DNA of 64,000 nucleotides. Source: an uncultured bacterium. GTDB lineage: Bacteria; Omnitrophota; Omnitrophia; Omnitrophales; Aquincolibacteriaceae. The notes beneath the pieces were generated by a model. That model had not been told where the DNA came from, searched no databases, and saw only the letters and a program-made list of their open reading frames with translations. This document shows, one piece after another, positions 5,208 to 22,436 of this stretch (the stretch's first letter is position 1; each line of letters opens with the position of its first letter). A program made the position numbers and the translations under genes. The stretch spans positions 137,680 through 201,679 of the forward strand of contig CAYSSX010000002.1 of assembly GCA_964434115.1 (NCBI GenBank), written 5' to 3'.

Positions 5208-5553
5208 GTTTTCACCCCAAGGAAATTTTTTTGATAAAGACGAACCGTTCTTAAACGGTTTTAGTATCTTCAAAAGTAAATATAACCCCATATTGAGTTA
5301 TTACAAGCTATAGAGTCTTATTTTGCCCTATTAAAATCAAAAACATACAAAACTAATCAAGAAAATTAAAAAAAGAGCATAAAAAAGCTGGTTAATGCTA
5401 GACGCCAACAGTAGGCTAAAAGCAGCTTAACTCCCTGCGGTGCAAAAGGATGGAGGAATGTCTTGATAAATGGCCCTGCTTTTCGCATCATACACGTGTT
5501 TCATTTGCTCCCTCCGGGATAAAAACCATTCATTTTCTTAAGGACCCGCTCTC

Positions 5554-8211: not shown

Positions 8212-8316
8212 ATGAAAGTTTCCAGGAACAGCTCTCGGTTTACATACTTCCTTAAAACTACCTCTGCGGTTGTGGCTGTTTTTTTTACCGTGAATACGGT
8301 TTTTGCGGCTGCGCCC
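8212..8316 (+). other. Predicted signal peptide of the giant protein
   Basis: Basic n-region (K, R, R), hydrophobic core AVVAVFFTVNTVF, AxA-like cleavage site VFA-AA. Confidence 0.55.
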
Positions 8317-11300
8317 ATTTCGATCAACGGCGGAGCTATGACTTCATCGGCCGTGAATTTGGGAGCTGATTCATTCTCTTGGTTTGAGGGCCTTCAGGTT
8401 CCTGAATCGTTTGGGCGGATCGAGTCCCGGTATTGGCCCAAAGAAACCGCGGTCAAAGGTCCCGCGGTCATTCATATTCAGGACGCACATGCCAATCCCG
8501 AAGCGCAGAGGCATATTGCCGAACTTCTTGGCGATCTTGAAGCGCGGGGGATTGTTTCAAGAATTTCTGTCGAAGGCGCTGCCGGCCCGCTTCATCCGGA
8601 AATCTTAAAGGTTTCTTCCCGTTCCGACATCAATCTTAAAATGGCGGATTATCTTTTGGAGCTCGGGGAACTTAGCGGCGCTGAACTTTTTGCTTTGAAA
8701 CACCCCCAGGCCCCGGAAATCCTTGGCGCGGAAAATACAGACCTCTACCGCCAAAGTTATCAGACTTTCGAAAAAGTGAAACGCGCAGAAGTTTTGATCC
8801 GGCCTGTCCTTGACACTTATGCCAAGGAACTCGAGCGCCTGCAAATCGCGCTTTTCCCCAAAGAACTGCATGAGTATGTGATCCGTTCCAATGAATGGCA
8901 CAGAAGCCAAGAGAGATCTTTCCGGTATTTTGACTTACTTGCCCGCTATGGCAGGGAGTATCTGGGGCTGGATTTTCACGACGCCCGGCTTCAGTTTGAG
9001 TGGCCGATGTTTGTGCGTTTGATGGCCTTGCAGGACATGGAGTCCAAAATCGATTCCGAGAAATCGAGAAGTGAATCTCAAGAAATAGTAAAAGCCTTGA
9101 ATGCCTCTGGAAATAAAATTTCAACGCAAGACCGTGAAGCCTTTGATTTTTTGTCTAAAAAAATAAAAGTTCTGTTTGATAACCCGTCTGAAACGGCCGC
9201 ATTTGTTCCCGACAGCCGCTATTCTGAGATCGAATCAATCCGCAGTCTCATGGAGTTTTTGAAAAGGAAAAGCCAAGCTGCGAGACTTGAGTTGTCTTTG
9301 TACCCGGACTTCGTGAAAAGAAGCGGCGTATTGATTCTGAGAGAAGAAATCGATGCCCGCATGCTTTTTTCGGAAATGGAAAAAGTTGAACGCCAGCTGG
9401 AAGAGAAAATGTCAGTTTCTGATGCTGAGAAAAGCCTTTTAAAAACGGCCCGCGACTTCCGGCTTCTTGAAAAATTGCTTTCACTCACGCTGACCCGGGA
9501 AGAATATGAAACCTTTTCTTCCAGAGTCCAGGATTTTCAACCCGCAGCATTTCGTGAGCGCTTTCGTTTGCTTGACCGCGAATTGAAGCAGGAAAAAGAC
9601 TACCCGCTTCTTTCCAGTGAAACCGTTACTGCGGCCGCTGAATTTTACAAACTCTCCCGCAGCCGCGATGAGATTTTATTGGATCAAGCTCTTTCCGGCG
9701 CTTCCGGCCAGGCTGTGGTGCTTGTCACGGGGGGCTTCCATAGCCAGGGAATGACAGATCTTCTAAAAGAGAGAAAGATTCCGCATGTGGTTATTGCCCC
9801 TAAAATAACAACCGCAGGCGAGGATGGCCTCTACGACAAAGTCATGATGGGGGGGCATTCTTCTTCGGAGGCTCCGGCAAATCCAGCATTGGGAACGCTC
9901 GCCAAGATGATTCTCTCTCAGCTTCCGTCGGTTTACGGCGTTCTTCAGCCGGGCACGCGCCCGGAAGAACAGGCGGCCCTTATTTTCAGAGGACTTCGTG
10001 ACGCTGCACTTCCCGCGCTTCGTGAGCAAGGCGTCCCGGAGCAAGTTATTTATGATGAGCTGTCACGCTGGGTTTCTCAGACCGGCGTTTTTTCGGGAAC
10101 AGATTTTCAAGTTTCATTCGATAGCGCTGCCAGCCGTGTGTCTTTGTCAGGTGCCGCAAGCGTTGAGACTGCACTACGCTCAGAACTTCGCATGGCCCCT
10201 GAGCCGGACACGCTTGCTTGGATTGCTGCAAATCTTCCCGAAGATGCAAATCGTCAGAAGGTTGTGGAAGCGATTACGGCCCTTAATGACCGTAAAGAGA
10301 AAGATTATGCTGAGGCAAACGGTGCCTATACGGGAATGTCTTTGTCTGATTTTCTCTTACAAAACACCGCAGAGTCAATTCCTGACCTTGACGGCCTTAT
10401 CCGTGATGTTTCGCGGATTGAAGGGTTGGTTCAGGAGGTCTATTCGAGTTTTGGAATTGGCGGGCTCTCCCTTGCTCACCGCGCCGCTTTTATTCTTGGT
10501 GCCTTTAGCCAGGCAGAATTTCCTGTGATCCACGAAGCTCTTCAAACCGCCTATGGCGCGATACGCTTTGACGAACACCGTTACTCGGAAGACCTGTCGG
10601 CTGAGGAATATGCCCGCCTCGCAAGAAAATTCTCAGAAGCCGTGAGCCGTGAAACTGTGCAGGAAAACCTCCTGATACGCGCAGCCCTTACCGAATATGT
10701 TTTCAATATTCCGGCACAAGCCAGACGCGCCCTTGAAAAAGAAAATCTTGTGAATGAACTGATCCGTGAGCTTCAGGAGCCGGGCAAAGGCCGGGTTCCC
10801 AACCTTACGTTTCTTACCGACTTACATGGAAGTACCAAGGTAGGTTCCTTTATTGCTTTCGCGCTGGGTATCGATGACTACGCTGGAATTACAAGCCCTC
10901 AAGAGCTTGAGCGCCGCCTAGTCGCAGACTGGCAGAAAAAAAATCCGGGTGCTCCTGAAAAATCCCTAAACGAGATTCTCGAAGAGAGAAATGTTCTCAT
11001 CGTGGGCGGCTCGGATTATGTGGATCGAGGGCCCAAACCCTATTGGGGTTTTCAATTTAATAAGTGGCTCCGCGAACACGGACTTTTGAAGTTTATCAAC
11101 GGTAACCACGACCTTTGGAAGGACTGGAATGTGGTTGGTATGCATCTTCGCGTGCATGACACGCTCCGAGATATAGCAGCTTCTGGAAAATTTAATGAAG
11201 CAGATCTTGCGGCGAATATTGAACGTATTCAGCGGTTTGTTACAACTGCGGGATGGGATCCGGAAAAAGACCGGACTAAATTTGAAGATACCGAAGCGCA

Positions 11301-14300
11301 AGTTCGGGAAATTATGAAGACGTTTATGCTTGGCATGCAGCAGGGAGCTGTGACGGACGCTCTTATTGAAACGGTTGCAGATGCCATTATCGATTCAGGC
11401 AACAATGCCAATCATTCCCTGGAGTGGTGGGCGCGTGAATGGGGGATTCACGGGGGCTGGTTTGATACCTTTTTGGATCAAATTAATGAGGAGTTAATCA
11501 ACGAGGCCATTAATGCTGCAAATATTGTGATTTCGCAGGAGGCGAATGCTCCGCGAGTCATGGCGATGTTTAAAGATGAAAGTCTTTTGCCCGAAGAGAT
11601 CCGTCCTTATGTGGCAGCGTGGAGGGAAAAGCTGAAAGCCGGGAAGCCGATGTTTGACCGCGTTGAAGCCTCTCTTTTCTCAAAAGGCGAGGATGTGAAA
11701 ACCCTCAAGGCGGAAATTGAACGCATCAAGAAAGCTAATGCCGAGATCCGGAGTGCTAATGAAAAGCTTGCCGCTGAAAAGCGTTTTGGTGAAATGTCGC
11801 CTCAGCATAAAGTGCCAAGCGCTTTTGAGTTGACGGCCAAGGCTGCCCAGGCCGAGATGAGCCGCATTAAGAAAGCCCTTGAAACCCTCAATGACCTTCT
11901 GCCGGGCCTGAATCTTCCTGTGCCCGAATCTGAAGTTGTGACTCAGCAAAATTACAGGACGAATCCCTCTGTGGCTGAAACCGCGCTTTGGGATTGGAAA
12001 AATTTCAGGCTTTTGTATACGGATGTTTACGACAATGTTTACGTCCACGGAATTATTCCGGTGGATGTCGAGAAGCTTGATTTTAATGTGACGTATACAA
12101 ACCCTCAGGGAGAGGTTTTTAGGGGTATCGCGGCGATTGAACGCATACAGTATGAAGTGCGCAGTTTCTTTGAAAAGTACGACGCCCTGCCGGATACTCC
12201 GGAGTTCCGGGCCGAGCTTGACGCGAAGCTGGGAGCAGCCTTTCAGGTTTTGAACGAGTGGTACTCAGATGTGCTTGGGTTTCTCAAGCCTGAAAGTATC
12301 CAGGGATTTTTAAAGTCCGGAGGAGCTAAAAGTTACCCCTTTGGACAAGGCTCTGACTTGAGTCCTCGTCAATTCAAAGGGGCTCTCGGGGCCATGCACG
12401 TGGGGCATGTGGAGTCTGCGAAGCTTAGAAAGCAAAAAATGTCTTATTGGATCGGAGGGATGGAGGGCGGTCTTCTCCACGGAGACTTTGAAATGTCCGA
12501 GGGCTACTCAGGCCTGGGCGCGATCATTCAATGGTTCAGACGTGATGCGGCCGGCAAGCTTCTGGGCTTCTCGCGCTTCGGATATAAGGAGTCCGTATCT
12601 TTTTACAACAACCAGATCAAGGAAAAGGAAAAGAAACTCAAAGAAGCCGCTGCCGTTACGGCAAAGGCCAGGACGGACCAAAAAGCGGAACTTGAAATCC
12701 AAGGCCTTGAAGCTGCTGAATTGAAGCTTAGGCAAGACATCGAAGCTTTAAAAGTACAGCGTGAGGCTCTAGTGAGCCGCGGCGAGCAGATGGAAGACAT
12801 CACTTTTCATGACGACCTTTTGCCTGCCGATGCAGAAAAAATTCGTCCTTACAAGGCCGGTGGTGATTTGGCCCGCTATTACATTGACCGTTTTCTCAGG
12901 GAAAACATTGAATCTTATAGAAGTCTGAAGGAAGAGGCTTCCAAGGTTGGGAACAAGGAACGTGCAGCTTTCTATGAAAGACGCGAGCAGGACGTTCGGG
13001 AACGCCTTAAAAGCTTCCGGAAACAAGAGTCTGAGCGGATGCTTGATGTTCTGTCGGGATGGAATTCCGGAGCGCTTCAGGCGCTGGCGGCTGCCAGGGC
13101 GGCCGTGGGACGACAGGATTACGCCGCGGCAGCTGCAGCGCTAATGCCGCTCACGCAATCGCAGGATGCCGGTGAAGATTTTACGGCGGCTTTGAAACAG
13201 ACCGCGCAAGCTCTTGAGCTGTTCTCCCGCGCGGAGCTGCGTGGAGAAGACTTTGTTCCTCAGTCGGAACTTGTGCTTTCTGATATGGCAGGAAGCCCGG
13301 CACAGGTTCTCGGCCTTTTTGCAGCCGCTCAAATTGCCAGCCCAAAACAAGCTCGTTCTGAACTGCGCTCCTTCGATGATGATGAAGAAGTGGTGCTTTC
13401 CGCTGAACTCCAGAATTTGTTCCGAGATGGGCTCGGCATGGATCCAGCCACCTTCAGCCGGGAAGAAAATAAAAACATCCTGAAAAGTTCTGAGGTCTTC
13501 GAATTTCTGATTAACAATCCCTTATTCACAGGAGCCCGAAAAGATCAGCTCCGAAGCATTTTTCAGGGGAACTTAACCTCTTGGGAAAATCTGGCAGCAG
13601 CTCTTTTGGCTGCCCGTTTGGCTCAGCCAGGATTACCCGATCCCGGAGTCGAATACCGGGCCGATGCTGTTTTTACCCTGAAGATGATGGAACGCTTAGG
13701 CTGGGAGCTTTCTAGTGCAGCAGCGCTTCGTAAGCCGATCGAGGAAAGAGCGCGCAATCTGGTAAAAGTCTACGGAGCATTTACAGTTTCTGATTCAGAT
13801 TTTCTTGCCACCGCCGCGAAGGCGCTTTACCGGGTTGTCGGGAATTCCTTCCATGCCACTGAACTCATTTTTGACACAACGGCATTGACTGAGCAGGAAA
13901 GACATACGGTTGAACAGGTCCAGCCTTTCCTTGAATATATTCAAAACAACAATGGATTTTTTGGTGACCGCCTCGGAGATCTTTGGCAGATTTTTCACAA
14001 TCATCTTACCTCGCCCTCGGACATGGCAAAAGCATTTATCGAAAGCGTTGAGGTCTCGTTCAAAGCTCCGGCAACATCCGAGACCCCTTTGATACCCGAT
14101 GATGCGGTTCACGGGCACGCCTTGAAATTGATAAAGTCTCTTTTGACGCTTATTCCCCAAGACCAGTCTGAGATCCGCCTGCAAGCCCTTGAGAAAGCTC
14201 GCGCGATTTTAAGTTCGGACCATACTTACCATGTTGTTTTGTCAGCGATTGAGGTTTTTGATGCCATTGGAACGCCGGCATTACAGGATCTCGTTCTGTA

Positions 14301-17300
14301 TTCCGCGCCATCTATTCCCGCAGATTACCGAAAAAACGCAATCTGGGCCTTGGCTCGTCATCGGGATGCTGCTGTTCCGTATCTGGCCAAGCTGATTATG
14401 GAAGAGCCTGAAGCTCGCTCAAGAAATGCGCTGGCAGAACTTCTGCAGAGAGTGTCCCGGGAGAGTGAATATGCTCCTGAGCCTGTGATGCGGCGTGATG
14501 TCTTTGATTTTTTTATCGGAGACCGGAAAATTGCAGAACAGCTTTTTGCGCTTATGGGCGGCCAGCTTCCCTTTTACAGGCAATTTATTAATTCATCCTG
14601 GCTGATTCCGTTTGATACCAAAGACCGGTTGAATGTCTTGCGCGCCCGTGTGGCGTTACTGCAGAAATTTAAGGGACATTTCACAGCGTCCGATTTTTCA
14701 ACCCTGCTTGAAACATGGGGGTTTGACAGCGTTTCCTACTGGGCAGAGCGAGTCGATTTCACAGCCCAGCGCGAGCACTTTCAATTTCTAATCAATCTTC
14801 CAAGACTTGATAAATCCATTTCTCCTGTTTCGGAAGCCATTCAAATATCCCGCCGCGACCACACGCCGGAACATACTCGATCCATACTGCTTCTTCTTCT
14901 CGAAGGGGGAGTCCTTTCTGGCGGCGGAATCGGTGCCCTCATTGATTTGATTCGTGAAAATCCGAGGGACTCCGTGGAAATTATGGCGTTTCTGATTGTG
15001 GCGCTCAAACTTCAAGATTTTGACTTTGGAGAAGACGGGGTTGTGCAAAGGAGAATTTCCCAGCTTCTTCATTCAAACATTGGCCCCGTTTATTTTATGG
15101 CGAGGAAGCTGGCTAAAAGTATTCCGCATGCCACCAATACTTCAGCTGGACTGGAGGCCGGCATTCGCGCCCCCATCGCAGAGCTGGATGATTCTTTGGG
15201 CCATGGAAATATGCTTTTTTATTTTCTGCGCATGGAGTTTCACCGAGCGCCTTCGACCGGCGATCTGGAAGTTATGCGGCAGACACTGCGCTTGATGCTT
15301 GACCTTCATCACCCAGTTCCCGAAAAACGCATTAAGTCTTCTGATGTCGACCGGGTTATTAGAGTCAGAATGCAGGATCTTGTTAGAAACGTGTTGCATA
15401 CCCGGGTTTTTCCTGCTTTTAAAGCGCCTTTGGTTGAACAGGCGGCATGGTTTATTGGAAGAGAGGTTATGAATATGGGCGGGACGGAAAACGATAGTCC
15501 GGACTATCTCTTGGAACATCCGCCAACATGGGCCAACTTTACCGATGAGGAAAAGCAGTCAGAGGGCTACCGAGCCGCACAGCTTCTTATTAGGACCTTC
15601 ATTGGCTTAAGAGACCGGTATGTTTTGAACCCAAGGGCTATTGAATTTATGAATACGGGCGGTGCAGCGAAACTGGCTTCTGAGGGTGATGTTTTGGGCG
15701 CGCTGAGAGCTCTTCAGGATTGGCGCCAAGGAATGAAACAATCACTGCTGACCCCGTCGGAAATGGAAGACCAATGGGAAATGTATATAAAACGCCACAT
15801 TACTGTGAACGACTTTGGCTATGTAAGCAACAGCAGTTACGGAAATTATAGCGAAGCCAAGTTTAATGAATTTGAACGAGATCGCGTGCTGGAGCGTTTT
15901 GCGGAGAATCTGCACGATGAGTTTTTGGCGCGGTTGTTTCCGCAGTACCAGGAATCCATTAGCCAGGCGGCGCAGGCTCAAACACCTGCCGAAACTAAAC
16001 CGGAAACCGTACTTCCTGAAAGTATCCGCGAACCTCTAAAAAATATTTTGCTTGCACTGCGTGCCTTGGTCAACCAAATGGCGATGGATGGGATCGCAAA
16101 CGAGCGTCTCGTGACGCTTATGCGAGTCCTTGAAACAGAGTCTTTGGATGTCCGGCAGGCGGCGAATATTATCGCGCTTATGCAGGATGAGTCGATCCGA
16201 ATGTATGACTTTTTTAACTTTCATTTTTCAGATTATCCCAAACAGCTTGCTCTGACGCTTGGCAAGGAAAGGGTTTTTGCCAGGTACCGCAAAGACAATG
16301 ACGATGAATTGACAGACAAGCAGTGGGCAAGCCGGGCCCAGGAAACGCTTCTTGCGGATATGAATGCTGAAGAAAAAACCATTTCAACCTTAAAGAGATA
16401 TTTAGAAAGTCTTCAGGTCGTTTTTGGGAGTCTGAAAGCTCAGGAACGTCAGCTTCTCAATCCGATTCCCTTGATCGTGGGTGATCTTCCTGTTTACAGT
16501 TCCAGCTTTGATCCTGAAACTGTTTCTCCTGTGAAGGTAGGGTCCAAAGCCTATGAGCTTCTTACGCTCAAAGCTTCGGGCTATCCTGTTCCTGCACTCA
16601 GTGTGCTGCCCAGCGAACTTCCCCGGACAACCAAGCTTGCCGTGGCTAACCCAATGTTTCGTTTCAGCGTTCTCCGCTCCCTTCTTGAACTTGAAAAAGA
16701 AAGCGGAAGGGTATTTCCCTTTCCTTCAGAAGGTCTAACGGACGCTGAAAAAGAGCAGGTCAGGGTTTTTCGCCAGGGTTATGCTTTCAACCCCGACGCC
16801 CCGCCGCTTTCGATTTCTATCCGGAGCGGATCTTTTTATTCCATGCCGGGAATGATGGACACTGTTCTCAACATGCCTTTTAACGAGGCTATTCGCGATG
16901 AGTTGATCCGTCGCGGTGAGCCTGAGGTTTTCGTCCTCGACAATTACCGGAGATTTTTAAGCGCGTACGCGATAAGCAGGTACGGCATTGATTCACGGTT
17001 TTTTTCAGAAGCAATTGACGAACTGAAACAAAAAGCCGCCCAGCGGCTCGGAAGATCTGCTTCAGCGATTACGATTGCCCAGTTTAATGTAGAGGAACTG
17101 AAAGAGGTCATTCAGAAATTTGAAGAGATCATCAGTTCAAGGGTTTCTGGTTTCGAACTGGAAGATCCTTTCACTCAGGTTTTGAAAGTCACCATGGATG
17201 TTTATAAGTCCTGGAACAGCAATGGGGCCACTCGTTACCGTCAGACCTTTGGTATCTCGGAACGTTTTGGCACGGCGGTCATTTATGAACAAATGGTTTA

Positions 17301-20300
17301 TGGAAACCGCGGCTCAAATTCAGGAACGGCTGTTGTGATTTCTAGTGATCCGGCTATGGGTAAGCATTACATGAGCGGCGCCTGGAAATTCGGAGGACAG
17401 GGAACTGAACTTGTCAGCGGTATGACAGGAGACTATATCGCGCTGACTCATCACGAAGGACAAGGACAAAGTCTGGAAGCGATCAACCCTGCTCTTTTTT
17501 CTGAGGTCCGGCAAGTTGTCGAAAAGCTGGATCGCGACCGAGGCCCTCAAGATATCGAAATCACCGCAGAAGATGGGAAAGTTTATTTGCTTCAGACAAG
17601 ACCCATGGTTCTCTCCGGAAAAGCCCCCAAGATGGTGCTTGAACCAGAGCAGTCTGCGCGTGATGCAGCCATTCCTGCTGTTCAAGGTGTTCCGGTTTCT
17701 CCAAATGCCGCGGTGGGGCGTATGGTGAATGCTCGAAACCTCAGCATTCCTAAACTCAAAGGGATTATCACAGAACTCCGCCGGAAAATGGACGAGGCGG
17801 GTGAAGAAGACCTTGGGATCATTCTTGTATCCGATTACGTTAACGATGATACCGCTGCCGCAATTCTCGATGTTAATAGTGAGCTCGGCCACAGAGGCAT
17901 TACGGGGATCATTAATTCAAAAGTCGGCGTCAGCAGCCATGCTGGTCTTATTGCCCGCCGTTTGGGTATTGCCTATGTCAGTGACGTAGAAGGGCTTGAA
18001 TTTAATGACGTATCAGGCGTAACCCGTTTGGCTGACCAGGACCTTAAATTCGGCATGGCCGGACTGGTGCTCAGCATTGATGGGTATTCCACACTCCAAA
18101 GTGAACACAGCGGAAAGGTTTTCCTTGGTGAAGTCACGCATCGTTTTGCAAAAGGATCGCCGACGCTTGGAGATCGGGACGAAGAAATCATAACTCAGGA
18201 AGAAAAGCCCGCATTTTCCTACGACCCTGAAGAAAAACCCGTTTTGACAAAAGAACCCGTTCGCCTTGCGGTGAATTTGGGGGCCTTTCGAGTCGACAAG
18301 CAAGGACAATCGACGGGCGTGCTGGAATCCAATTTTGATTTATCCAGGGCTAAGATTACAAACACGGTGCCTAATCGCGTGTTCGATGCCTTTTTGCGCA
18401 GCCTTGTCGGCAACCCTAATTTTTCCCTTACGGATATTTATGGTGTTGAGGACGCGGAGAAGTTCTTTGCGTTTCTCCGGGGGAATATCGCTCACGGTGT
18501 TTTTGATATCAATCAGATGGATGTGCATAAGGAAACGGACTTCTGGGTTTTGACTCTGAATGGACACAACATCAGGATCCATGAAGCTCCTGCGGCACCT
18601 GGGATTTTGAATCAGAAGGTCGAGTATTTGATTGATTTTAGCGACCCCGACTTGACGCGTGAAACGAACGAGCAGCGTGAACAGCGCCTCAAAGCACTGC
18701 AGGGCGGTAACTTGAAAAGGGTTTTTGCCTTTTCCGGTGACGAGGATCCAGCGGCCAGAGTTCTCACGCCCGGGATCAATACCCAAGAATTTACGGATGC
18801 TCAGAATCTGTTTCTTCCCCTGGCTTCTCCTTTGACCCTTGCAGCAGCGCAGGTTCTTTCTGTTATTGAGAAGGCCTTTCCCGGAGAGTTTGATGTTTTC
18901 TCCAGTGTTTTGGCTACCCGCCCCTTAAGCGGAGAAGCCGGAAATATTGCTTTTATACGAGACAAACAGTTTGGGAGTGCTTTGAAAGGTTTGTTTCCGC
19001 AAATAGCGCCCGAAGTCCCGGGAAGTCCCGCAACCATGTTTGAATTTGATATTCCAAAAGGTGCCGGGAATGTCAGGCTTTTCCTCGTGCCTAAGCCCGG
19101 ATCAAAGTTTGAACAGGTTAAGAGCTTGGGTAAGGATGAGAAAGCCGCCATGATCAAGGTCCTTCAAAAGGAAATTAACAAGGCCGTTGAGACCGCAGCA
19201 AAAGGCAGCCTTGCACCCTTTCTCCGCTATGCCGGAGAAGAACATCTCAGCTCGCTGACGGCTCTTCGGGATACGCATGCCGTAGTTTTTGACAGCCAGG
19301 CGACGGCCGTTGTGGAAGGCGGCAAGGTGGAACTCTATTTTCACATGAATGACATCGGGTATGCAGCTGCGCTCAGCAAAACACTTGAGTCCTTTCTGGC
19401 TGTCGATGCAGAGCCGATAGAGGCATTGGCGAAACCTCTGTTTGCAAAACAGGCAGCGCAGGGGATTTGGAGGACCGGAACGATTGCGCCCAATCAGATT
19501 ATTCAAACGCCCCGTTTTGTTGCTGCTGGTGATGAAATCGGGTTTGGAATTATCGGAGTCCGCGGACGCATCGGTAAACAGGTCCATCAGCTTCTGGCGT
19601 CAAATCCAAATTATGTTCCGGAATTTTGGATCGGCGTTCAGGATATTGATACGTTGATTCAGCAGTTTAAAGAAGACGTTGGACAGGGGCCCGCCGATGT
19701 TGTCCGGGATGATGAAGTTTATGAACTCGAAAAAGGTAAGGATGAAAACAAAGACCACGTTCTTCTTAAAAACAAAAAAACCGGAGCTTATTTGCTGAAT
19801 CCCAAAACGAATAAACCTTTGGCGATTCCGTATTACAACATCACCATGAAAGCCCAGGGAGATCCTGAGGCCTTTGAACGGCATCTTCGGGAAACTCTGG
19901 GGGATGCCATTGACCGCATAGAAACCCTTTTTAATGCGGCTGGGTTCGGACTTGATCGCAATGATCCGTATTATGACGCCTTTTTGGGAGGCGCTAAGTT
20001 GAAGCGTATTGTTTTGACCGCTCCCGCGAAAGGAGAAGTGGATGTGACGGTTGTTCGAGGCGTGAATGAAAGTGCTTTAGCCAAAGCTGTTGAAAACACA
20101 GAGGGGCAAGTTCTTTTTTGTTCCGCAGCTTCGTGTACCACCAATGGGCTGGGACGTGCTCTTATTGAATTTGTTGGGATTCTTGAAAATGCAGGATTCC
20201 CCGCAGACAGCGTTCGCTTTATCACCCATCACGCCATGACGCCAAGTCAGGGCGCTCTTTTTGGGGCTGCGTCGGCAGGAAAATCTCAGCGCACGGCCAA

Positions 20301-22335
20301 TGACCCTAACATGTCGGCCATGCTGGAAGCGACTGGCGCGAACAAAGTTGTTGTTGAGGTCTGGAATTCTTTCAAGGGAAAATTGAGCGGCGTGTCTCAC
20401 CGTGACGGTAACTATGCAGGATCTGTGCTTGTGGTGACGGCCTTTATTAAGGCCGGAGAAAACAAATACCCTACGGCCGAAGAGATCAATAGGGCTTTTG
20501 AAGATATTGCCGCCAGGGAAGATCTCAAGGGGATTTTGTCCTACAAGCCTGGTGTGATTTCAACAGGCCAAATCGCAGGAGACAGGACAACGTCGATGTT
20601 TTTGCCCGAGTTTACGAAAGTTGAGATCGGAAAAAACGGAGCGGCAGTGACCATGGTTGTCGGCTATGACAACGAAGCCGGATATACCAACGCGGTCATT
20701 CAGTTTGATCAGCTTCTCGCAATGGCGGCTCGCGGAGTGACTCCGCCTGCGGGGCTGGGAGCAGTGGATGCCGCGAATAAAGCCTTGGAAAATAAAATTT
20801 ATATGCAGCGGTATGAAGCACTTCTTCACAGGGTTCGAGGTTATCTGAACCTTAAAGCTCTCAATCTTGAGCAAAATCAGAGGGCGGCTTTTCTGGAATC
20901 CCTGCAGCAGCTTTTGGCCGTCCTTCAGCAAAACACAACGTCTGCTGGAGGGAATCGCGTGTTGGAAGCGGCTCGGGATGCTTTCAGCCAAGTTGAAAGA
21001 ATTGGAACTGCCGAAAATACGGAAATCCGGCAAGTTGAAAATGATCTTGAGAATACCATTTTTGAAATTGAAGACGCGCTCAACGGAACCCAGCCGCGCA
21101 GCGAACTCCGCAGCATTGAACTCGCAATCGAGGCTCTTGGTAATCTCGGACTCAGCATTTCTGATCAGGACCGGATCCGGTTTACCTCTGTGGAAGACGC
21201 TGCACGATACGCGGATCAGCAAATACGGGTTAACTTTGCTTCTCTTGATCTGGCTGGATTGAAATCGCGTGCCGATAAGCTGATACGCGAAGGACACACC
21301 CCTTACCAGGGACGCGAGGCGATTGAACGGGCGGTTCGCGAACTCAATGAGATCCGCGGGATTGATGCGCCCGCATTCCTCAATCACTTGGCAAATTTGG
21401 TGTCAGACCGGATTCGCGAAATCGGTTCAGCGCGCTCCGAACTCCGTGACCTTTCTCCTGCAGCGCCTGCCTTTGAAGACTGGAAAGCCAGTTACCAGAC
21501 AGCCTTACCGTTTTTAGGTGCTGATTACGAAAGCCGCCGCTGGGTCGCTGTCCACATGGCTGACGGCCTTTTTGCGGTTGTGCCCGCGGCGCTTGAACCC
21601 ATTATTCGGGATGCGGCGATGCAGTTTCTCAAACAGGATTTATTTTACTTTGATGGAAACTTTGAAAGACCGACAGATGCCTTGGGGGTCCCGGCTTCCA
21701 CCCAGCCTTCGGCCAACCAGCCTGGGCTTGAGATTTCAGTCACCCGGAAAATCGAAGACGCTGAAACGCATTTTCTTGCTGTGGCCACACTGCTGGCCCG
21801 GAAAGATCAAGCCTATGTTCATGAACTGCTTTTGGATGGCGACCCCGAAGAAGCGGCTCGTCTCAACCAGGCTTTTCGGGAGGAGTATGGTTACACAGGT
21901 TTTGCCGGCCGGTATCAGGTGACGGCGGTTTCTTCCAAGGATCTTGGGAAGAAAATTCAAGGGCTTGTCAGCGGGGTCTATAACAATGTCCGCTCTGCAT
22001 CGGACGCGGCCAACCTTCAGGATTTTATTGCCCGGCATGTCGCTTTCTCAAGCCCAGACCGCGAACTTCTTGTTAAGGGACTTGTCAACACAGGGTGGCT
22101 TATTCACGACGACTTGGGAAATCACCCAGGCATTATCGCGGCCCGTATGGACCGCTCGGTTTCTCTTGCTGCGGGACAGCTTGAGCCTGAGTTAATCCGC
22201 AAGCTCGGAGAAATTGCGGCTCTCCGGAAAGTTATTTCAGCGTCCGGGGAACTTTTTGCGGGGATGAACCTGCAGCTGATCCAGGACCTTTGGGACAATG
22301 CTGTGAAGCAGCGCTGGTTTTACAAGTCAGCATAA
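8212..22335 (+). CDS. Giant secreted multidomain protein (4707 aa) with a mosaic of metallophosphoesterase-, PPDK/PEP-synthase- and GAPDH-like modules plus coiled-coil and HEAT-like regions
   Basis: Single uninterrupted 14,124-nt ORF with RBS AAGGAA upstream. N-terminal signal peptide MKVSRNSSRFTYFLKTTSAVVAVFFTVNTVFA|AAP. Internal modules are listed as separate features below. Confidence 0.8.
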   Translation: MKVSRNSSRFTYFLKTTSAVVAVFFTVNTVFAAAPISINGGAMTSSAVNLGADSFSWFEGLQVPESFGRIESRYWPKETAVKGPAVIHIQDAHANPEAQRHIAELLGDLEARGIVSRISVEGAAGPLHPEILKVSSRSDINLKMADYLLELGELSGAELFALKHPQAPEILGAENTDLYRQSYQTFEKVKRAEVLIRPVLDTYAKELERLQIALFPKELHEYVIRSNEWHRSQERSFRYFDLLARYGREYLGLDFHDARLQFEWPMFVRLMALQDMESKIDSEKSRSESQEIVKALNASGNKISTQDREAFDFLSKKIKVLFDNPSETAAFVPDSRYSEIESIRSLMEFLKRKSQAARLELSLYPDFVKRSGVLILREEIDARMLFSEMEKVERQLEEKMSVSDAEKSLLKTARDFRLLEKLLSLTLTREEYETFSSRVQDFQPAAFRERFRLLDRELKQEKDYPLLSSETVTAAAEFYKLSRSRDEILLDQALSGASGQAVVLVTGGFHSQGMTDLLKERKIPHVVIAPKITTAGEDGLYDKVMMGGHSSSEAPANPALGTLAKMILSQLPSVYGVLQPGTRPEEQAALIFRGLRDAALPALREQGVPEQVIYDELSRWVSQTGVFSGTDFQVSFDSAASRVSLSGAASVETALRSELRMAPEPDTLAWIAANLPEDANRQKVVEAITALNDRKEKDYAEANGAYTGMSLSDFLLQNTAESIPDLDGLIRDVSRIEGLVQEVYSSFGIGGLSLAHRAAFILGAFSQAEFPVIHEALQTAYGAIRFDEHRYSEDLSAEEYARLARKFSEAVSRETVQENLLIRAALTEYVFNIPAQARRALEKENLVNELIRELQEPGKGRVPNLTFLTDLHGSTKVGSFIAFALGIDDYAGITSPQELERRLVADWQKKNPGAPEKSLNEILEERNVLIVGGSDYVDRGPKPYWGFQFNKWLREHGLLKFINGNHDLWKDWNVVGMHLRVHDTLRDIAASGKFNEADLAANIERIQRFVTTAGWDPEKDRTKFEDTEAQVREIMKTFMLGMQQGAVTDALIETVADAIIDSGNNANHSLEWWAREWGIHGGWFDTFLDQINEELINEAINAANIVISQEANAPRVMAMFKDESLLPEEIRPYVAAWREKLKAGKPMFDRVEASLFSKGEDVKTLKAEIERIKKANAEIRSANEKLAAEKRFGEMSPQHKVPSAFELTAKAAQAEMSRIKKALETLNDLLPGLNLPVPESEVVTQQNYRTNPSVAETALWDWKNFRLLYTDVYDNVYVHGIIPVDVEKLDFNVTYTNPQGEVFRGIAAIERIQYEVRSFFEKYDALPDTPEFRAELDAKLGAAFQVLNEWYSDVLGFLKPESIQGFLKSGGAKSYPFGQGSDLSPRQFKGALGAMHVGHVESAKLRKQKMSYWIGGMEGGLLHGDFEMSEGYSGLGAIIQWFRRDAAGKLLGFSRFGYKESVSFYNNQIKEKEKKLKEAAAVTAKARTDQKAELEIQGLEAAELKLRQDIEALKVQREALVSRGEQMEDITFHDDLLPADAEKIRPYKAGGDLARYYIDRFLRENIESYRSLKEEASKVGNKERAAFYERREQDVRERLKSFRKQESERMLDVLSGWNSGALQALAAARAAVGRQDYAAAAAALMPLTQSQDAGEDFTAALKQTAQALELFSRAELRGEDFVPQSELVLSDMAGSPAQVLGLFAAAQIASPKQARSELRSFDDDEEVVLSAELQNLFRDGLGMDPATFSREENKNILKSSEVFEFLINNPLFTGARKDQLRSIFQGNLTSWENLAAALLAARLAQPGLPDPGVEYRADAVFTLKMMERLGWELSSAAALRKPIEERARNLVKVYGAFTVSDSDFLATAAKALYRVVGNSFHATELIFDTTALTEQERHTVEQVQPFLEYIQNNNGFFGDRLGDLWQIFHNHLTSPSDMAKAFIESVEVSFKAPATSETPLIPDDAVHGHALKLIKSLLTLIPQDQSEIRLQALEKARAILSSDHTYHVVLSAIEVFDAIGTPALQDLVLYSAPSIPADYRKNAIWALARHRDAAVPYLAKLIMEEPEARSRNALAELLQRVSRESEYAPEPVMRRDVFDFFIGDRKIAEQLFALMGGQLPFYRQFINSSWLIPFDTKDRLNVLRARVALLQKFKGHFTASDFSTLLETWGFDSVSYWAERVDFTAQREHFQFLINLPRLDKSISPVSEAIQISRRDHTPEHTRSILLLLLEGGVLSGGGIGALIDLIRENPRDSVEIMAFLIVALKLQDFDFGEDGVVQRRISQLLHSNIGPVYFMARKLAKSIPHATNTSAGLEAGIRAPIAELDDSLGHGNMLFYFLRMEFHRAPSTGDLEVMRQTLRLMLDLHHPVPEKRIKSSDVDRVIRVRMQDLVRNVLHTRVFPAFKAPLVEQAAWFIGREVMNMGGTENDSPDYLLEHPPTWANFTDEEKQSEGYRAAQLLIRTFIGLRDRYVLNPRAIEFMNTGGAAKLASEGDVLGALRALQDWRQGMKQSLLTPSEMEDQWEMYIKRHITVNDFGYVSNSSYGNYSEAKFNEFERDRVLERFAENLHDEFLARLFPQYQESISQAAQAQTPAETKPETVLPESIREPLKNILLALRALVNQMAMDGIANERLVTLMRVLETESLDVRQAANIIALMQDESIRMYDFFNFHFSDYPKQLALTLGKERVFARYRKDNDDELTDKQWASRAQETLLADMNAEEKTISTLKRYLESLQVVFGSLKAQERQLLNPIPLIVGDLPVYSSSFDPETVSPVKVGSKAYELLTLKASGYPVPALSVLPSELPRTTKLAVANPMFRFSVLRSLLELEKESGRVFPFPSEGLTDAEKEQVRVFRQGYAFNPDAPPLSISIRSGSFYSMPGMMDTVLNMPFNEAIRDELIRRGEPEVFVLDNYRRFLSAYAISRYGIDSRFFSEAIDELKQKAAQRLGRSASAITIAQFNVEELKEVIQKFEEIISSRVSGFELEDPFTQVLKVTMDVYKSWNSNGATRYRQTFGISERFGTAVIYEQMVYGNRGSNSGTAVVISSDPAMGKHYMSGAWKFGGQGTELVSGMTGDYIALTHHEGQGQSLEAINPALFSEVRQVVEKLDRDRGPQDIEITAEDGKVYLLQTRPMVLSGKAPKMVLEPEQSARDAAIPAVQGVPVSPNAAVGRMVNARNLSIPKLKGIITELRRKMDEAGEEDLGIILVSDYVNDDTAAAILDVNSELGHRGITGIINSKVGVSSHAGLIARRLGIAYVSDVEGLEFNDVSGVTRLADQDLKFGMAGLVLSIDGYSTLQSEHSGKVFLGEVTHRFAKGSPTLGDRDEEIITQEEKPAFSYDPEEKPVLTKEPVRLAVNLGAFRVDKQGQSTGVLESNFDLSRAKITNTVPNRVFDAFLRSLVGNPNFSLTDIYGVEDAEKFFAFLRGNIAHGVFDINQMDVHKETDFWVLTLNGHNIRIHEAPAAPGILNQKVEYLIDFSDPDLTRETNEQREQRLKALQGGNLKRVFAFSGDEDPAARVLTPGINTQEFTDAQNLFLPLASPLTLAAAQVLSVIEKAFPGEFDVFSSVLATRPLSGEAGNIAFIRDKQFGSALKGLFPQIAPEVPGSPATMFEFDIPKGAGNVRLFLVPKPGSKFEQVKSLGKDEKAAMIKVLQKEINKAVETAAKGSLAPFLRYAGEEHLSSLTALRDTHAVVFDSQATAVVEGGKVELYFHMNDIGYAAALSKTLESFLAVDAEPIEALAKPLFAKQAAQGIWRTGTIAPNQIIQTPRFVAAGDEIGFGIIGVRGRIGKQVHQLLASNPNYVPEFWIGVQDIDTLIQQFKEDVGQGPADVVRDDEVYELEKGKDENKDHVLLKNKKTGAYLLNPKTNKPLAIPYYNITMKAQGDPEAFERHLRETLGDAIDRIETLFNAAGFGLDRNDPYYDAFLGGAKLKRIVLTAPAKGEVDVTVVRGVNESALAKAVENTEGQVLFCSAASCTTNGLGRALIEFVGILENAGFPADSVRFITHHAMTPSQGALFGAASAGKSQRTANDPNMSAMLEATGANKVVVEVWNSFKGKLSGVSHRDGNYAGSVLVVTAFIKAGENKYPTAEEINRAFEDIAAREDLKGILSYKPGVISTGQIAGDRTTSMFLPEFTKVEIGKNGAAVTMVVGYDNEAGYTNAVIQFDQLLAMAARGVTPPAGLGAVDAANKALENKIYMQRYEALLHRVRGYLNLKALNLEQNQRAAFLESLQQLLAVLQQNTTSAGGNRVLEAARDAFSQVERIGTAENTEIRQVENDLENTIFEIEDALNGTQPRSELRSIELAIEALGNLGLSISDQDRIRFTSVEDAARYADQQIRVNFASLDLAGLKSRADKLIREGHTPYQGREAIERAVRELNEIRGIDAPAFLNHLANLVSDRIREIGSARSELRDLSPAAPAFEDWKASYQTALPFLGADYESRRWVAVHMADGLFAVVPAALEPIIRDAAMQFLKQDLFYFDGNFERPTDALGVPASTQPSANQPGLEISVTRKIEDAETHFLAVATLLARKDQAYVHELLLDGDPEEAARLNQAFREEYGYTGFAGRYQVTAVSSKDLGKKIQGLVSGVYNNVRSASDAANLQDFIARHVAFSSPDRELLVKGLVNTGWLIHDDLGNHPGIIAARMDRSVSLAAGQLEPELIRKLGEIAALRKVISASGELFAGMNLQLIQDLWDNAVKQRWFYKSA
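10790..11500 (+). other. Calcineurin-like metallophosphoesterase module within the giant protein
   Basis: Ordered motifs D870-L-H-G (FLTDLHG, nt 10819-10830), GGSDYVDRG (GD-x-x-D-R) and G964-N-H-D (INGNHD, nt 11101-11112). These match the metallophosphatase signature DxH..GDxxDRG..GNH[DE]. Confidence 0.6.
16530..17630 (+). other. Pyruvate phosphate dikinase / PEP synthase-like nucleotide-binding (ATP-grasp) module within the giant protein
   Basis: VGSKAYELLTLKASGYPVPALSVLPSE (compare GGKGANLAEM..GLPVPPGF), SMPGMMDTVLNMPFNE (PPDK hallmark SMPGMMDTVLNLGLN), MVYGNRGSNSGTAVVISSDP...GE.LVSG and LLQTRPM. Confidence 0.65.
17690..18140 (+). other. PEP-utilizing-enzyme mobile (phosphohistidine swivel) domain-like module within the giant protein
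   Basis: GITGIINSKVGVSSH(3243)AGLIARRLGIAYVSDVEG resembles the GGxTSHAAIxARExGIPxVVG phosphohistidine motif. The candidate His codon is at 17938-17940. No PEP/pyruvate-binding TIM-barrel domain follows. Confidence 0.55.
19520..20720 (+). other. Glyceraldehyde-3-phosphate dehydrogenase-like module within the giant protein
   Basis: Gly-rich NAD-binding start FGIIGVRGRIGKQV. Active-site motif SAASC(3975)TTNG (ASCTTNC, Cys codon 20134-20136). FITHHAMTPSQGALFGAAS (compare TVHAxTxxQxxxDGPS). VVGYDNEAGYTN (compare WYDNEWGYS). Has a ~40-aa insertion in the N-terminal lobe. Confidence 0.7.
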
Positions 22336-22436
22336 GCGCCGAACCATTTTCTTTTTCGTCTTTCCGGTATGGCCGCAAGAAATCCGCTTTATCTTTTTGG
22401 AATATGTCCGATGAAAGCTCCATACGGAAAGGACCT

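What the first reader, a model, noticed from the sequence alone, without database searches (positions are those of the whole stretch)
19520..20720. GAPDH-like module with intact catalytic Cys and His embedded near the C-terminus of the giant secreted protein
The segment reproduces the GAPDH fold signatures in the correct order: Gly-rich NAD-binding start GIIGVRGRIGKQV, active-site SAASC(3975)TTNG matching ASCTTNC, ITHHAMTPSQ matching the TVHAxTxxQ block that carries the catalytic His, and VVGYDNEAGYTN matching WYDNEWGYS. It also has a ~40-aa insertion in the NAD-binding lobe.

Retention of both catalytic residues suggests an active oxidoreductase or thiol-dependent activity rather than a decayed relic. 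GAPDH is a classic surface moonlighting adhesin that binds plasminogen and fibronectin, so a tethered GAPDH module could serve adhesion. It is also a separate glycolytic fold from the PPDK-like module in the same polypeptide.
Basis: seen in the sequence. Interest (0 to 1): 0.78.

Follow-up and report, generated by a model that had tools for sequence, protein, structure and literature searches.

The report
Tandem dead/live GAPDH in exported giant
A 4,707-residue exported protein of an uncultivated Omnitrophota bacterium carries a true GAPDH-derived enzyme module with its catalytic residues kept, fused behind a catalytically dead copy of itself, which adds GAPDH to the sugar-metabolism enzymes already reported inside this phylum's giant proteins.

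Summary
Residues 3770-4172 of the 4,707-aa ORF (nt 8212-22335, +) are homologous to type I GAPDH. Cys3975 and His4007 align with catalytic Cys149 and His176.

Residues ~3340-3745 are a second GAPDH copy that has lost Cys (now Pro3540), His, Arg231 and the glycine loop. The dead-plus-live pair is inherited as one block in at least eight other giant proteins. All named ones come from Candidatus Omnitrophota. The live copy's catalytic set is invariant at 33-78% identity, which argues for catalysis rather than adhesion.

The nucleotide pocket is altered: GxxGxxG replaces GxGxxG, the Asp32 position is Gly, and the lobe has about 51 extra residues.

The protein has a Sec-type signal peptide and no other hydrophobic segment. 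Relatives string GAPDH with PGK, TIM, hexokinase, aldolase or FBPase modules. A 2023 preprint already lists several glycolytic domains in Omnitrophota giants, but not GAPDH.

Verdict: a real, probably active, divergent GAPDH module, and a new variant of a known theme. Site of action and cofactor supply remain unknown.

The parts
8212..22335 (+). Giant ORF, 4707 aa, that holds all parts below
   Evidence: Single ORF from ATG to stop. A positional ortholog in an Omnitrophota MAG (L001:4338-16922) has the same flanks: dnaX, recR, response regulator, hydrolase.
8212..8310 (+). Signal-peptide-like N-terminus (MKVSRNSSRFTYFLKTTSAVVAVFFTVNTVFAA): basic n-region, about 17-aa hydrophobic core, V-F-A/A-A site
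   Evidence: Read from the sequence. It is the only Kyte-Doolittle peak outside globular domains. Family members have the same kind of N-terminus. No SignalP-type tool was available.
8314..10011 (+). Conserved N-terminal domain (aa 35-600) with invariant 'IQDAH' and 'GGFH' motifs; tentatively ChaN/EreA/TraB-like
10810..11256 (+). Calcineurin-like metallophosphoesterase-like module (aa 867-1015; motifs DLHG, DYVDRGP, GNHD)
   Evidence: Pfam Metallophos 0.0026, 18.6 bits, below the 21.5 cutoff. Motifs located. Weak evidence.
16777..18036 (+). PPDK-like module (aa 2856-3275): ATP-grasp plus phospho-histidine swivel domain, without the PEP/pyruvate TIM-barrel domain
   Evidence: Pfam PPDK_N 5.3e-14. 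TIGR01828 2.6e-57. PDB PPDK 1kbl 2.2e-34, matching chain residues 76-486 only. The 'SSHAGLIARR' His motif is at aa 3241.
18229..19446 (+). GAPDH copy A (aa ~3340-3745): catalytically dead pseudo-GAPDH with Cys149->Pro3540 (nt 18829-18831); His176 and Arg231 lost; WYDNE->FHMND; glycine loop split by a ~30-aa insert
   Evidence: phmmer against PDB finds 33 GAPDH chains, best 1vc2 at 7.8e-7. Canonical-GAPDH HMM 1.9e-10 over HMM positions 13-325. Alignment, residue table. hhalign of the A family against the B family gives 96.9% probability, E 1.6e-10, over 320 columns.
19519..20727 (+). GAPDH copy B (aa 3770-4172): the module of the finding, with the catalytic set kept
19555..19575 (+). Variant glycine loop GVRGRIG (GxxGxxG) of copy B
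   Evidence: It lies between strand A and the first helix in the AF2 model.
19633..19635 (+). Gly3808 at the position of GAPDH Asp32 (end of strand B)
   Evidence: MAFFT alignment. Strand register Y3801-I3807 in the AF2 model. Codon checked.
20134..20136 (+). Cys3975, aligned to catalytic Cys149
   Evidence: Invariant in alignment A2.
20230..20232 (+). His4007, aligned to catalytic His176
   Evidence: Invariant in alignment A2.
10177..10191 (+). RSELR motif 1 (aa 656-660), at the end of the N-terminal block
13228..13242 (+). RAELR motif (aa 1673-1677)
13354..13368 (+). RSELR motif 2 (aa 1715-1719)
21097..21111 (+). RSELR motif 3 (aa 4296-4300), between the GAPDH unit and the C-terminal block
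21433..21447 (+). RSELR motif 4 (aa 4408-4412)

Best explanation
Residues 3770-4172 are a divergent but catalytically competent descendant of type I GAPDH.

It most likely performs GAPDH-type chemistry. Cys3975 is activated by His4007 and attacks an aldehyde, most plausibly a phosphorylated triose or tetrose held by the retained Thr179/Arg231-type anion site. Hydride passes to a nicotinamide cofactor bound in a remodelled Rossmann lobe. That remodelling is a GxxGxxG loop, Gly in place of Asp32 and about 51 extra residues, so the cofactor may be NADP or unspecific rather than strictly NAD.

The module does not work alone. It is the second half of a fixed tandem unit whose first half (aa ~3340-3745) is a dead GAPDH copy. 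I infer that this copy serves as a built-in partner subunit, replacing contacts that free GAPDH gets from its homotetramer.

The unit is one module of a Sec-exported multi-enzyme protein typical of Omnitrophota. The protein also holds a PPDK-like phosphotransfer module, a phosphoesterase-like module, and repeated RSExR linker motifs.

Shown: homology, residue conservation, the tandem architecture, the family context and the signal-peptide-like N-terminus.

Inferred: catalytic activity, the pseudo-dimer role of copy A, cofactor preference, and the place of action (periplasm, cell surface or prey).
For: Homology and register. Fold: full-length GAPDH match at TM 0.77-0.82, 22-25% identity.

Selection on catalysis: S148, C149, T150, H176, T179, G209, R231, N313 and E314 are invariant in copy B across eight orthologs at 33-78% identity. 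They are kept in every second or B-type copy of 20+ large proteins. Copy A of the same proteins has Pro at 149 and none of the others. Copy A acts as an internal control for what relaxed catalytic constraint looks like.

Tandem unit: aa 3317-4190 is inherited as one block in L001, P0121-P0127 and, in two alignment pieces, P0129. The two-copy AF2 model has pTM 0.71 and a confident inter-copy linker. The A and B families are homologous.

Context: relatives combine GAPDH with PGK, TIM, hexokinase, GPI, aldolase, FBPase, isocitrate lyase or malate synthase. All six family proteins that carry an organism name are Candidatus Omnitrophica/Omnitrophota. The window's RpoB groups with Omnitrophota. A preprint reports other glycolytic domains and PPDK in Omnitrophota giants, predicted extracellular (10.1101/2023.11.21.568195).
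Against: - No activity data exist.
- The module is far below the GAPDH equivalog cutoff, 111 against 367 bits.
- Pfam Gp_dh_N does not detect the N-lobe.
- The glycine loop has an extra residue and the Asp32 position is Gly, so nucleotide binding is not assured.
- In the 190s anion loop, T. aquaticus 'DLRRAR' is 'SQRTAN' here. Only the first Arg is kept.
- The S-loop (aa 4011-4038) is modelled with pLDDT below 50.
- A Sec-exported enzyme would meet no NAD(P) or ATP in the periplasm or medium. This makes classical catalysis hard to place unless the protein reaches a prey cytoplasm.
Confidence: 0.6

Rival explanations
1. Non-catalytic module. The GAPDH fold is used as a binding or adhesion surface, or as a metabolite sensor, on an exported protein.
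For: The protein is probably exported, to a place where NAD(P) is not expected. The nucleotide lobe is remodelled. Surface and secreted GAPDHs with non-glycolytic roles are known: streptococcal SDH 6ite is among the fold hits. Purified M. xanthus GAPDH and PGK inhibit E. coli growth (PMC10141889).
Against: The complete catalytic set is invariant across orthologs down to 33% identity, while the neighbouring copy A lost it. A pure binding role would not hold Cys, His, Arg231 and Asn313 fixed. No adhesin-type repeats or domains were detected in the protein.
Confidence: 0.2
2. Cytoplasmic, membrane-tethered metabolon. The N-terminal hydrophobic segment is an uncleaved anchor or is mis-read, and the enzyme string works inside the cell, where NAD and ATP are available.
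For: All recognisable modules need cytoplasmic cofactors: GAPDH and PPDK here, and PGK and hexokinase in relatives. West-Roberts et al. themselves warn that an extracellular call for glycolytic domains may be a topology error.
Against: Four basic residues precede the hydrophobic core, none follow it for more than 60 residues, and there is an A-x-A-like site. By the positive-inside rule the bulk is outside. The same signal-peptide pattern recurs in more than 12 family members, with no second hydrophobic segment to bring the chain back.
Confidence: 0.15
3. Phosphoryl-relay partner. The tandem GAPDH unit sits where PPDK normally has its PEP/pyruvate TIM-barrel domain. The swivelling phospho-histidine domain would exchange phosphate with the GAPDH acyl-enzyme or with 1,3-bisphosphoglycerate, coupling aldehyde oxidation directly to ATP formation.
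For: The PPDK-like part stops after the His domain (PDB residues 76-486 only) and keeps the His motif. The tandem unit follows it within about 40 residues in the window. Relatives P0121-P0125 show the same order: P0121 begins at the end of the His domain, while P0122, P0124 and P0125 have PPDK_N or PEP-utilizers hits upstream of the GAPDH unit, at larger distances. The 190s anion loop of copy B has lost two of three arginines.
Against: In the positional ortholog L001 the GAPDH unit lies more than 1000 residues upstream of the PPDK-like block and is separated from it by an RSELR motif. P0127 and P0129 have the unit without a detected PPDK module. No precedent is known to me.
Confidence: 0.05

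Closest known systems
Type I (phosphorylating) glyceraldehyde-3-phosphate dehydrogenase, GapA type (Pfam PF00044 + PF02800; TIGR01534)
   Same: Two-lobe fold. ASCTTN catalytic Cys, His176, Thr179, Thr208-Gly209, Arg231 and YDNE are all in register.
   Different: Only 22-35% identity and below the equivalog cutoff. GxxGxxG loop, Gly at Asp32 and about 51 extra N-lobe residues. Two of three 190s-loop arginines are lost. It is fused behind a dead paralog and embedded in a 4707-aa exported protein, instead of being a free homotetramer.
Giant multi-domain proteins of Omnitrophota ('Archaeovorins' and 'multi-enzyme metabolic' giants; bioRxiv 10.1101/2023.11.21.568195 and 10.64898/2026.06.07.730766)
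   Same: Same phylum. Signal peptide or membrane association. Embedded domains of central sugar metabolism (TPI, GPI, FBPase, PGM, aldolase) and frequent PPDK domains, predicted extracellular.
   Different: This protein is much shorter (4.7 kaa, against at least 10-30 kaa). No C39/S8 peptidase, dockerin or TM bundle was detected. Its flanks are dnaX-recR rather than a secretion or pilus locus. Neither paper's main text mentions GAPDH inside a giant protein.
Fused glycolytic enzymes sent to an unusual compartment, e.g. TPI-GAPDH fusions of stramenopiles (PMC3527533)
   Same: GAPDH is covalently linked to other glycolytic enzymes and carries an N-terminal targeting signal (abstract).
   Different: Those are two-enzyme eukaryotic fusions with canonical GAPDH, imported into mitochondria. 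Here it is a bacterial Sec-type signal, many modules and a dead-plus-live GAPDH pair.
Secreted or surface 'moonlighting' GAPDH (streptococcal SDH; M. xanthus GAPDH and PGK, PMC10141889)
   Same: GAPDH acts outside the producing cell. In the predator M. xanthus, GAPDH and PGK inhibit prey growth.
   Different: Those are the ordinary housekeeping enzymes released without a signal peptide. This is a dedicated, divergent, signal-peptide-bearing paralog fixed in a polyprotein-like chain.

Membership tests
Type I GAPDH (TIGR01534 / PF00044 + PF02800) | C-terminal catalytic domain (Gp_dh_C) detected above the curated cutoff | tested here: met
   45.7 bits against a 24.4 cutoff, aa 3998-4137.
Type I GAPDH (TIGR01534 / PF00044 + PF02800) | N-terminal NAD-binding Rossmann domain (Gp_dh_N) | tested here: inconclusive
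   No Pfam hit in the window protein. The ortholog P0126, 41% identical over the whole module, hits Gp_dh_N at 1.1e-14. The AF2 model superposes on whole GAPDH chains at TM ~0.8.
Type I GAPDH (TIGR01534 / PF00044 + PF02800) | Catalytic Cys149 in the ASCTTN motif and His176 | tested here: met
   Cys3975 and His4007 are in register with T. aquaticus GAPDH. Both are invariant in orthologs.
Type I GAPDH (TIGR01534 / PF00044 + PF02800) | Anion (phosphate) sites: Ser148, Thr150, Thr179, Thr208-Gly209, Arg231 and the arginines of the 190s loop | tested here: inconclusive
   S148, T150, T179, T208, G209 and R231 are kept. In the 190s loop, 'DLRRAR' of T. aquaticus is 'SQRTAN' here, so only the first Arg is kept. 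E. coli-type GAPDHs also lack the middle Arg, so the meaning is unclear.
Type I GAPDH (TIGR01534 / PF00044 + PF02800) | GxGxxG dinucleotide loop and an acidic residue (Asp32) at the end of strand B, giving NAD preference | tested here: not met
   The loop is G-V-R-G-R-I-G with one extra residue. The residue after strand B is Gly3808, and the nearest Asp (3811) aligns with canonical Asp35.
Type I GAPDH (TIGR01534 / PF00044 + PF02800) | Whole-protein score above the equivalog cutoff | tested here: not met
   111.3 bits against 367.2.
Type I GAPDH (TIGR01534 / PF00044 + PF02800) | Homotetramer and NAD-dependent, phosphate-dependent oxidation of glyceraldehyde-3-P | not testable with these tools
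   Needs purified protein.
Omnitrophota giant multi-enzyme exported proteins (West-Roberts et al. 2023; 2026 preprint) | Encoded in an Omnitrophota genome | tested here: met
   The positional ortholog is in a Candidatus Omnitrophota MAG. RpoB nearest named relatives are Omnitrophota at 82-85%, apart from one record labelled Verrucomicrobiae at 88%.
Omnitrophota giant multi-enzyme exported proteins (West-Roberts et al. 2023; 2026 preprint) | Very long single ORF (the papers use thresholds of at least 10,000-30,000 aa) | tested here: not met
   4707 aa. It is the same kind of architecture at a smaller scale.
Omnitrophota giant multi-enzyme exported proteins (West-Roberts et al. 2023; 2026 preprint) | Signal peptide and/or TM helices, plus several unrelated metabolic enzyme domains in one chain | tested here: met
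   Signal-peptide-like N-terminus. PPDK-like, GAPDH x2 and phosphoesterase-like modules.
Omnitrophota giant multi-enzyme exported proteins (West-Roberts et al. 2023; 2026 preprint) | C39 or S8 peptidase domain; neighbouring type II/IV secretion-pilus locus and pilZ genes | tested here: not met
   No such Pfam hits in the protein. The flanks are dnaX, recR, a response regulator and a hydrolase.

The most novel reading that the evidence does not exclude
The protein is a self-processing exported polyprotein. Under this reading, an N-terminal ChaN/TraB/TIKI-like hydrolase domain, or a partner protease, cuts at the recurrent, lineage-specific RSExR linker motifs. This would release a set of active central-carbon enzymes outside the cell or inside prey. 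One of them would be a GAPDH that carries its own dead paralog as a partner subunit. The enzymes would then tap or rewire the host's glycolytic intermediates.
Probability: 0.15. Interest if true: 0.85.

Novelty: new variant of a known kind. Interest (0 to 1): 0.58.

Why it matters
Omnitrophota are uncultivated, ultra-small, probably host-dependent bacteria, and the function of their giant genes is unknown.

A GAPDH module held under catalytic selection inside a signal-peptide-bearing protein, next to a dead copy that shows what relaxed selection looks like, gives a small and expressible unit of about 870 aa. With it one can test whether the enzyme domains in these proteins actually work, and with what cofactor.

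If they do, energy-yielding steps of glycolysis (GAPDH, with PGK in relatives) are being placed outside the cytoplasm or into prey. That would change how the lifestyle of this phylum is modelled.

There is also a practical point. Public records name such proteins after one domain, for example 'phosphoglycerate kinase' or 'class II fructose-bisphosphate aldolase'. Orthology-based pathway reconstructions could therefore count exported modules as the cell's own glycolytic enzymes.

Tried and rejected
1. The search for homologous proteins with the module returned only free canonical GAPDHs at 29-36% identity. With copy A plus the N-lobe it returned nothing. The word index does not reach this family. 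The exhaustive representative search did reach it.
2. Exact look-ups of the giant protein and of the 100%-identical RpoB found no contig on record, so the source record could not be named.
It was rerun without that row.
4. The C-terminal 544 aa have no PDB sequence relative. The N-terminal domain profile has none either.
6. Mis-assembly or a chance fusion was considered and rejected. The same tandem block recurs in nine independent assemblies, and the gene is syntenic in L001.
7. A separate gap gene was looked for in the window. Only the giant ORF matches the canonical GAPDH HMM.
8. The N-terminal numbering columns (G7-D32) of the residue table are off by one against conventional numbering and were not used. 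The Asp32 assignment rests.
Full report
**1. Observation**

The window holds one uninterrupted ORF at 8212..22335 (+) of 4707 aa. Cys3975 is encoded at nt 20134-20136.

Homology to GAPDH is well beyond chance.
- Pfam Gp_dh_C scores 6.9e-12, above its cutoff.
- NCBIfam TIGR01534 (type I GAPDH) scores 5.5e-32 over profile positions 90-329 of 330. Eight more GAPDH and two erythrose-4-phosphate dehydrogenase models also hit.
- phmmer against PDB finds 134 GAPDH sequences, the best being 1cer at 6.6e-20.

In the printed alignment to T. aquaticus GAPDH, the residues fall as follows:
- Cys3975 on Cys149.
- The second His of ITHH (His4007, nt 20230-20232) on His176.
- Thr4010 on Thr179.
- Arg4064 on Arg231.
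- YDNE on Asn313/Glu314.

**2.

The 447 residues directly upstream (nt 18160-19500) are also GAPDH-homologous. Against PDB at a permissive threshold they hit 33 GAPDH sequences (28 at E below 0.1) and two chance rhamnose epimerases, best 1vc2 at 7.8e-7, with some alignments spanning chain residues 16-320.

A canonical-GAPDH HMM that I built from 114 free GAPDHs gives two domains in the giant:
- Copy A: aa 3390-3723, HMM positions 13-325, E 1.9e-10.
- Copy B: aa 3928-4169, E 6.8e-34.

Copy A is catalytically dead:
- ASCTT has become ASPLT (Pro3540).
- His176 and Arg231 are gone.
- WYDNE has become FHMND.
- The glycine loop is split by a ~30-aa insert.

Profile-profile comparison of the A family with the B family gives 96.9% probability, E 1.6e-10, over 320 columns.

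The whole block aa 3317-4190 is inherited as one unit in the ortholog L001 and in P0121-P0127; in P0129 it aligns in two pieces. Degenerate first copies followed by intact second copies also occur in P0148, P0159 and P0160. In P0128 and P0130 both copies of each pair are still intact.

**3. Is copy B under selection for catalysis?**

In an alignment of eight orthologous tandem units, at 33-78% identity to the window, several residue sets are invariant:
- S658-C659-T660-T661.
- H691, T694 and Q697.
- G726-A727, K729 and R748.
- Y836-D837-N838-E839.

Adding 3316 converts these to protein numbering. They are exactly the GAPDH catalytic and anion-site residues.

Every B-type copy in more than 20 large proteins keeps S148, C149, T150, H176, T179, T/S208, G209, R231, N313 and E314. 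Copy A, in the same polypeptides and under the same mutational regime, has lost all of them. This contrast is the strongest argument here that copy B is an enzyme and not a relic or a mere binding surface.

**4. Structure**

AlphaFold2 on aa 3317-4190, with the 8-row alignment, gives mean pLDDT 77.7 and pTM 0.71. The A-B linker is modelled confidently. The low-confidence regions are the two S-loop equivalents, which in copy B is aa 4011-4038.

Foldseek against PDB returns only GAPDH chains at the top. E is about 5e-23, TM normalised to the target is 0.77-0.82, and there are about 397 alignment columns at 22-25% identity. Both lobes of one copy therefore match a whole GAPDH subunit.

I had no access to coordinates. 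The idea that A packs on B like two GAPDH subunits is therefore an inference from the fixed tandem arrangement and the pTM value.

**5. How copy B differs from ordinary GAPDH**

- It scores 111 bits against the 367-bit equivalog cutoff, and Pfam Gp_dh_N does not see its N-lobe. P0126, 41% identical over the full module, does hit Gp_dh_N at 1.1e-14.
- The dinucleotide loop is G3782-V-R-G3785-R-I-G3788, with one residue more than GxGxxG.
- Strand B of the model is Y3801-I3807. The next residue, where GAPDH has Asp32, is Gly3808. Orthologs have I-G, L-G or N-G there. From general knowledge of Rossmann folds, loss of this acidic residue goes with tolerance of NADP.
- The span from the first loop glycine to the Cys is 193 residues, against 142 in canonical GAPDH. 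The extra residues are spread over about four insertions, the largest about 30 aa.
- In the 190s loop, 'DLRRAR' of T. aquaticus is 'SQRTAN' here. E. coli-type enzymes also lack the middle Arg, so this is not decisive.

**6. The host protein and its family**

The N-terminus, MKVSRNSSRFTYFLKTTSAVVAVFFTVNTVFA/AA, has a basic n-region, a hydrophobic core and an A-x-A-like site. A hydropathy scan finds no other membrane-like segment outside globular domains. More than a dozen family members have the same kind of N-terminus. By the positive-inside rule the bulk is exported. No dedicated predictor was available, so this is an inference.

Other modules in the protein:
- A conserved N-terminal domain.
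- A weak metallophosphoesterase match with DLHG, DYVDRGP and GNHD motifs.
- A PPDK-like part matching only PPDK residues 76-486, that is the ATP-grasp plus phospho-His domain without the TIM barrel, with 'SSHAGLIARR' kept.

An exhaustive HMMER search of 1.84 billion representatives found 530 hits. About 30 of the best 150 are proteins of 700-4800 aa. Their domain strings are:
- P0127: hexokinase plus GAPDH x2.
- P0128: GAPDH x4 plus PGK.
- P0135: TIM, PGK, GAPDH and FBPase.
- P0148: PGK, GAPDH x2, GPI, TIM, GlpX and DeoC.
- P0264: isocitrate lyase, TIM, aldolase, malate synthase and GAPDH x2.
- P0137: aldolase, ICL and GAPDH.

Every member that carries an organism name is Candidatus Omnitrophica/Omnitrophota. 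The window's RpoB has a 100% identical NCBI entry. Its nearest named relatives, at 82-85%, are Omnitrophota, apart from one record labelled Verrucomicrobiae at 88%.

L001 is the positional ortholog: dnaX is 70% identical, recR 86% and the downstream hydrolase 69%.

**7. Literature**

West-Roberts et al. [quoted passage not shown] These are predicted extracellular, with a caveat about topology. The authors suggest proteolytic processing.

A 2026 preprint (10.64898/2026.06.07.730766) defines a 'multi-enzyme metabolic' class of giants and finds that 94% carry a signal peptide or TM helices.

Neither main text mentions GAPDH within a giant protein. The general theme is therefore known. The new elements are the GAPDH member, its dead-plus-live tandem form and its altered nucleotide pocket.

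**8. Mechanism and rivals**

Best-supported reading: an active GAPDH-type thiol dehydrogenase with its own pseudo-subunit, part of an exported enzyme string (confidence about 0.6).

The main difficulty is cofactor supply outside the cytoplasm. It can be met only if the protein acts in prey or host cytoplasm or at an intimate contact site, or if the topology inference is wrong (rival, 0.15).

A non-catalytic binding or adhesin role (rival, 0.2) is disfavoured by the conservation pattern.

A phosphoryl relay between the truncated PPDK-like module and the GAPDH unit is attractive, because the unit lies downstream of the PPDK-like part in six proteins and, in the window, sits where PPDK has its TIM barrel. 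L001 separates the two by more than 1000 residues and an RSELR motif, so I give this rival 0.05.

**9. Other observations bearing on mechanism**

RSELR or RAELR occurs five times in the window protein and RSELR four times in L001. RSE[x]R-type motifs occur 2-5 times in P0121-P0125. Shuffles of the same sequences give an expectation of 0.1-0.2.

The motifs sit at borders of homology blocks, for example:
- Right after copy B in L001.
- Right before copy A in P0122.
- At the end of the N-terminal block in the window.

The order of blocks differs between the two positional orthologs. In L001 the block equal to window aa 3327-4172 precedes the block equal to aa 1925-3308.

Together these observations allow, but do not show, a self-processing polyprotein.

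**10. Verdict**

The finding is real and more structured than described. It is a new variant within a recently described and still unexplained class. Interest is moderate to high, because the ~870-aa tandem unit is a tractable handle on whether the enzyme domains of Omnitrophota giant proteins are functional.

Noticed in passing
window 10177-10191, 13228-13242, 13354-13368, 21097-21111, 21433-21447; L001 giant aa 686, 2211, 3653, 3900: A five-residue motif, RSELR (once RAELR), recurs 4-5 times per protein against 0.1-0.2 expected from shuffles. It sits at borders of homology blocks. Relatives P0122-P0125 use RSE[V/M/T/K/F]R. By eye, more distant relatives repeat other short motifs, such as GARM in P0127. 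These are candidate processing or docking sites.
   Followed up: partly
window 8212-22335 against L001:4338-16922: The two genes are positional orthologs with the same dnaX-recR upstream and response regulator-hydrolase downstream. Their internal module order is permuted: in L001 the tandem GAPDH block precedes the middle/PPDK block. The giant gene is also more diverged (38-59% identity) than its neighbours (50-86%).
   Followed up: partly
[not shown]
   Followed up: partly
window 16777-18036 (aa 2856-3275): The PPDK-like module has the ATP-grasp and phospho-histidine domains only. The PEP/pyruvate TIM-barrel domain is absent, while the His motif SSHAGLIARR (aa 3241) is kept. In the window the tandem GAPDH unit follows it within about 40 residues; in several relatives it lies downstream at larger distances.
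   Followed up: partly
window 22300-22335 (C-terminus ...RWFYKSA) and the C-termini of P0121-P0130 and P0180: Nearly all family proteins end in a small-residue dipeptide SA or AA (RSA, KSA, TSA, SSA, AAA, KAA, VSA, NAA, ESA, IAA, VAA). The last ~300-400 aa are shared with L001, P0121, P0125 and P0148. This may be a C-terminal recognition signal.
   Followed up: no
P0137, P0148, P0130, P0180 (relatives, not in the window): Public records name these 1.4-4.4-kaa multi-enzyme proteins after a single domain ('class II fructose-bisphosphate aldolase', 'phosphoglycerate kinase', 'glyceraldehyde-3-phosphate dehydrogenase'). Orthology-based pathway calls for Omnitrophota could be counting exported modules.
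   Followed up: no
window 2067-5291 (-): A 1074-aa ORF has no Pfam match at E below 0.001. It lies between a Na+/H+ exchanger-TrkA_C gene and dnaX.
   Followed up: no
window 22290-23171 (+): An ORF with a C-terminal response-regulator receiver domain overlaps the 3' end of the giant gene by 46 nt as listed. The L001 homolog aligns only from residue 47, so the true start is probably downstream. Its position next to the giant gene is conserved.
   Followed up: partly
window 10810-11256 (aa 867-1015): A calcineurin-like phosphoesterase signature (DLHG at aa 870, DYVDRGP at aa 935, GNHD at aa 964) lies inside the giant protein. The Pfam score is just below the cutoff.
   Followed up: no
tool behaviour: The word-indexed protein search did not return any of the giant homologs, although P0122 is in NCBI nr. 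Only the exhaustive representative search found them. Absence of hits in the indexed search is not evidence of absence for this family.
   Followed up: yes
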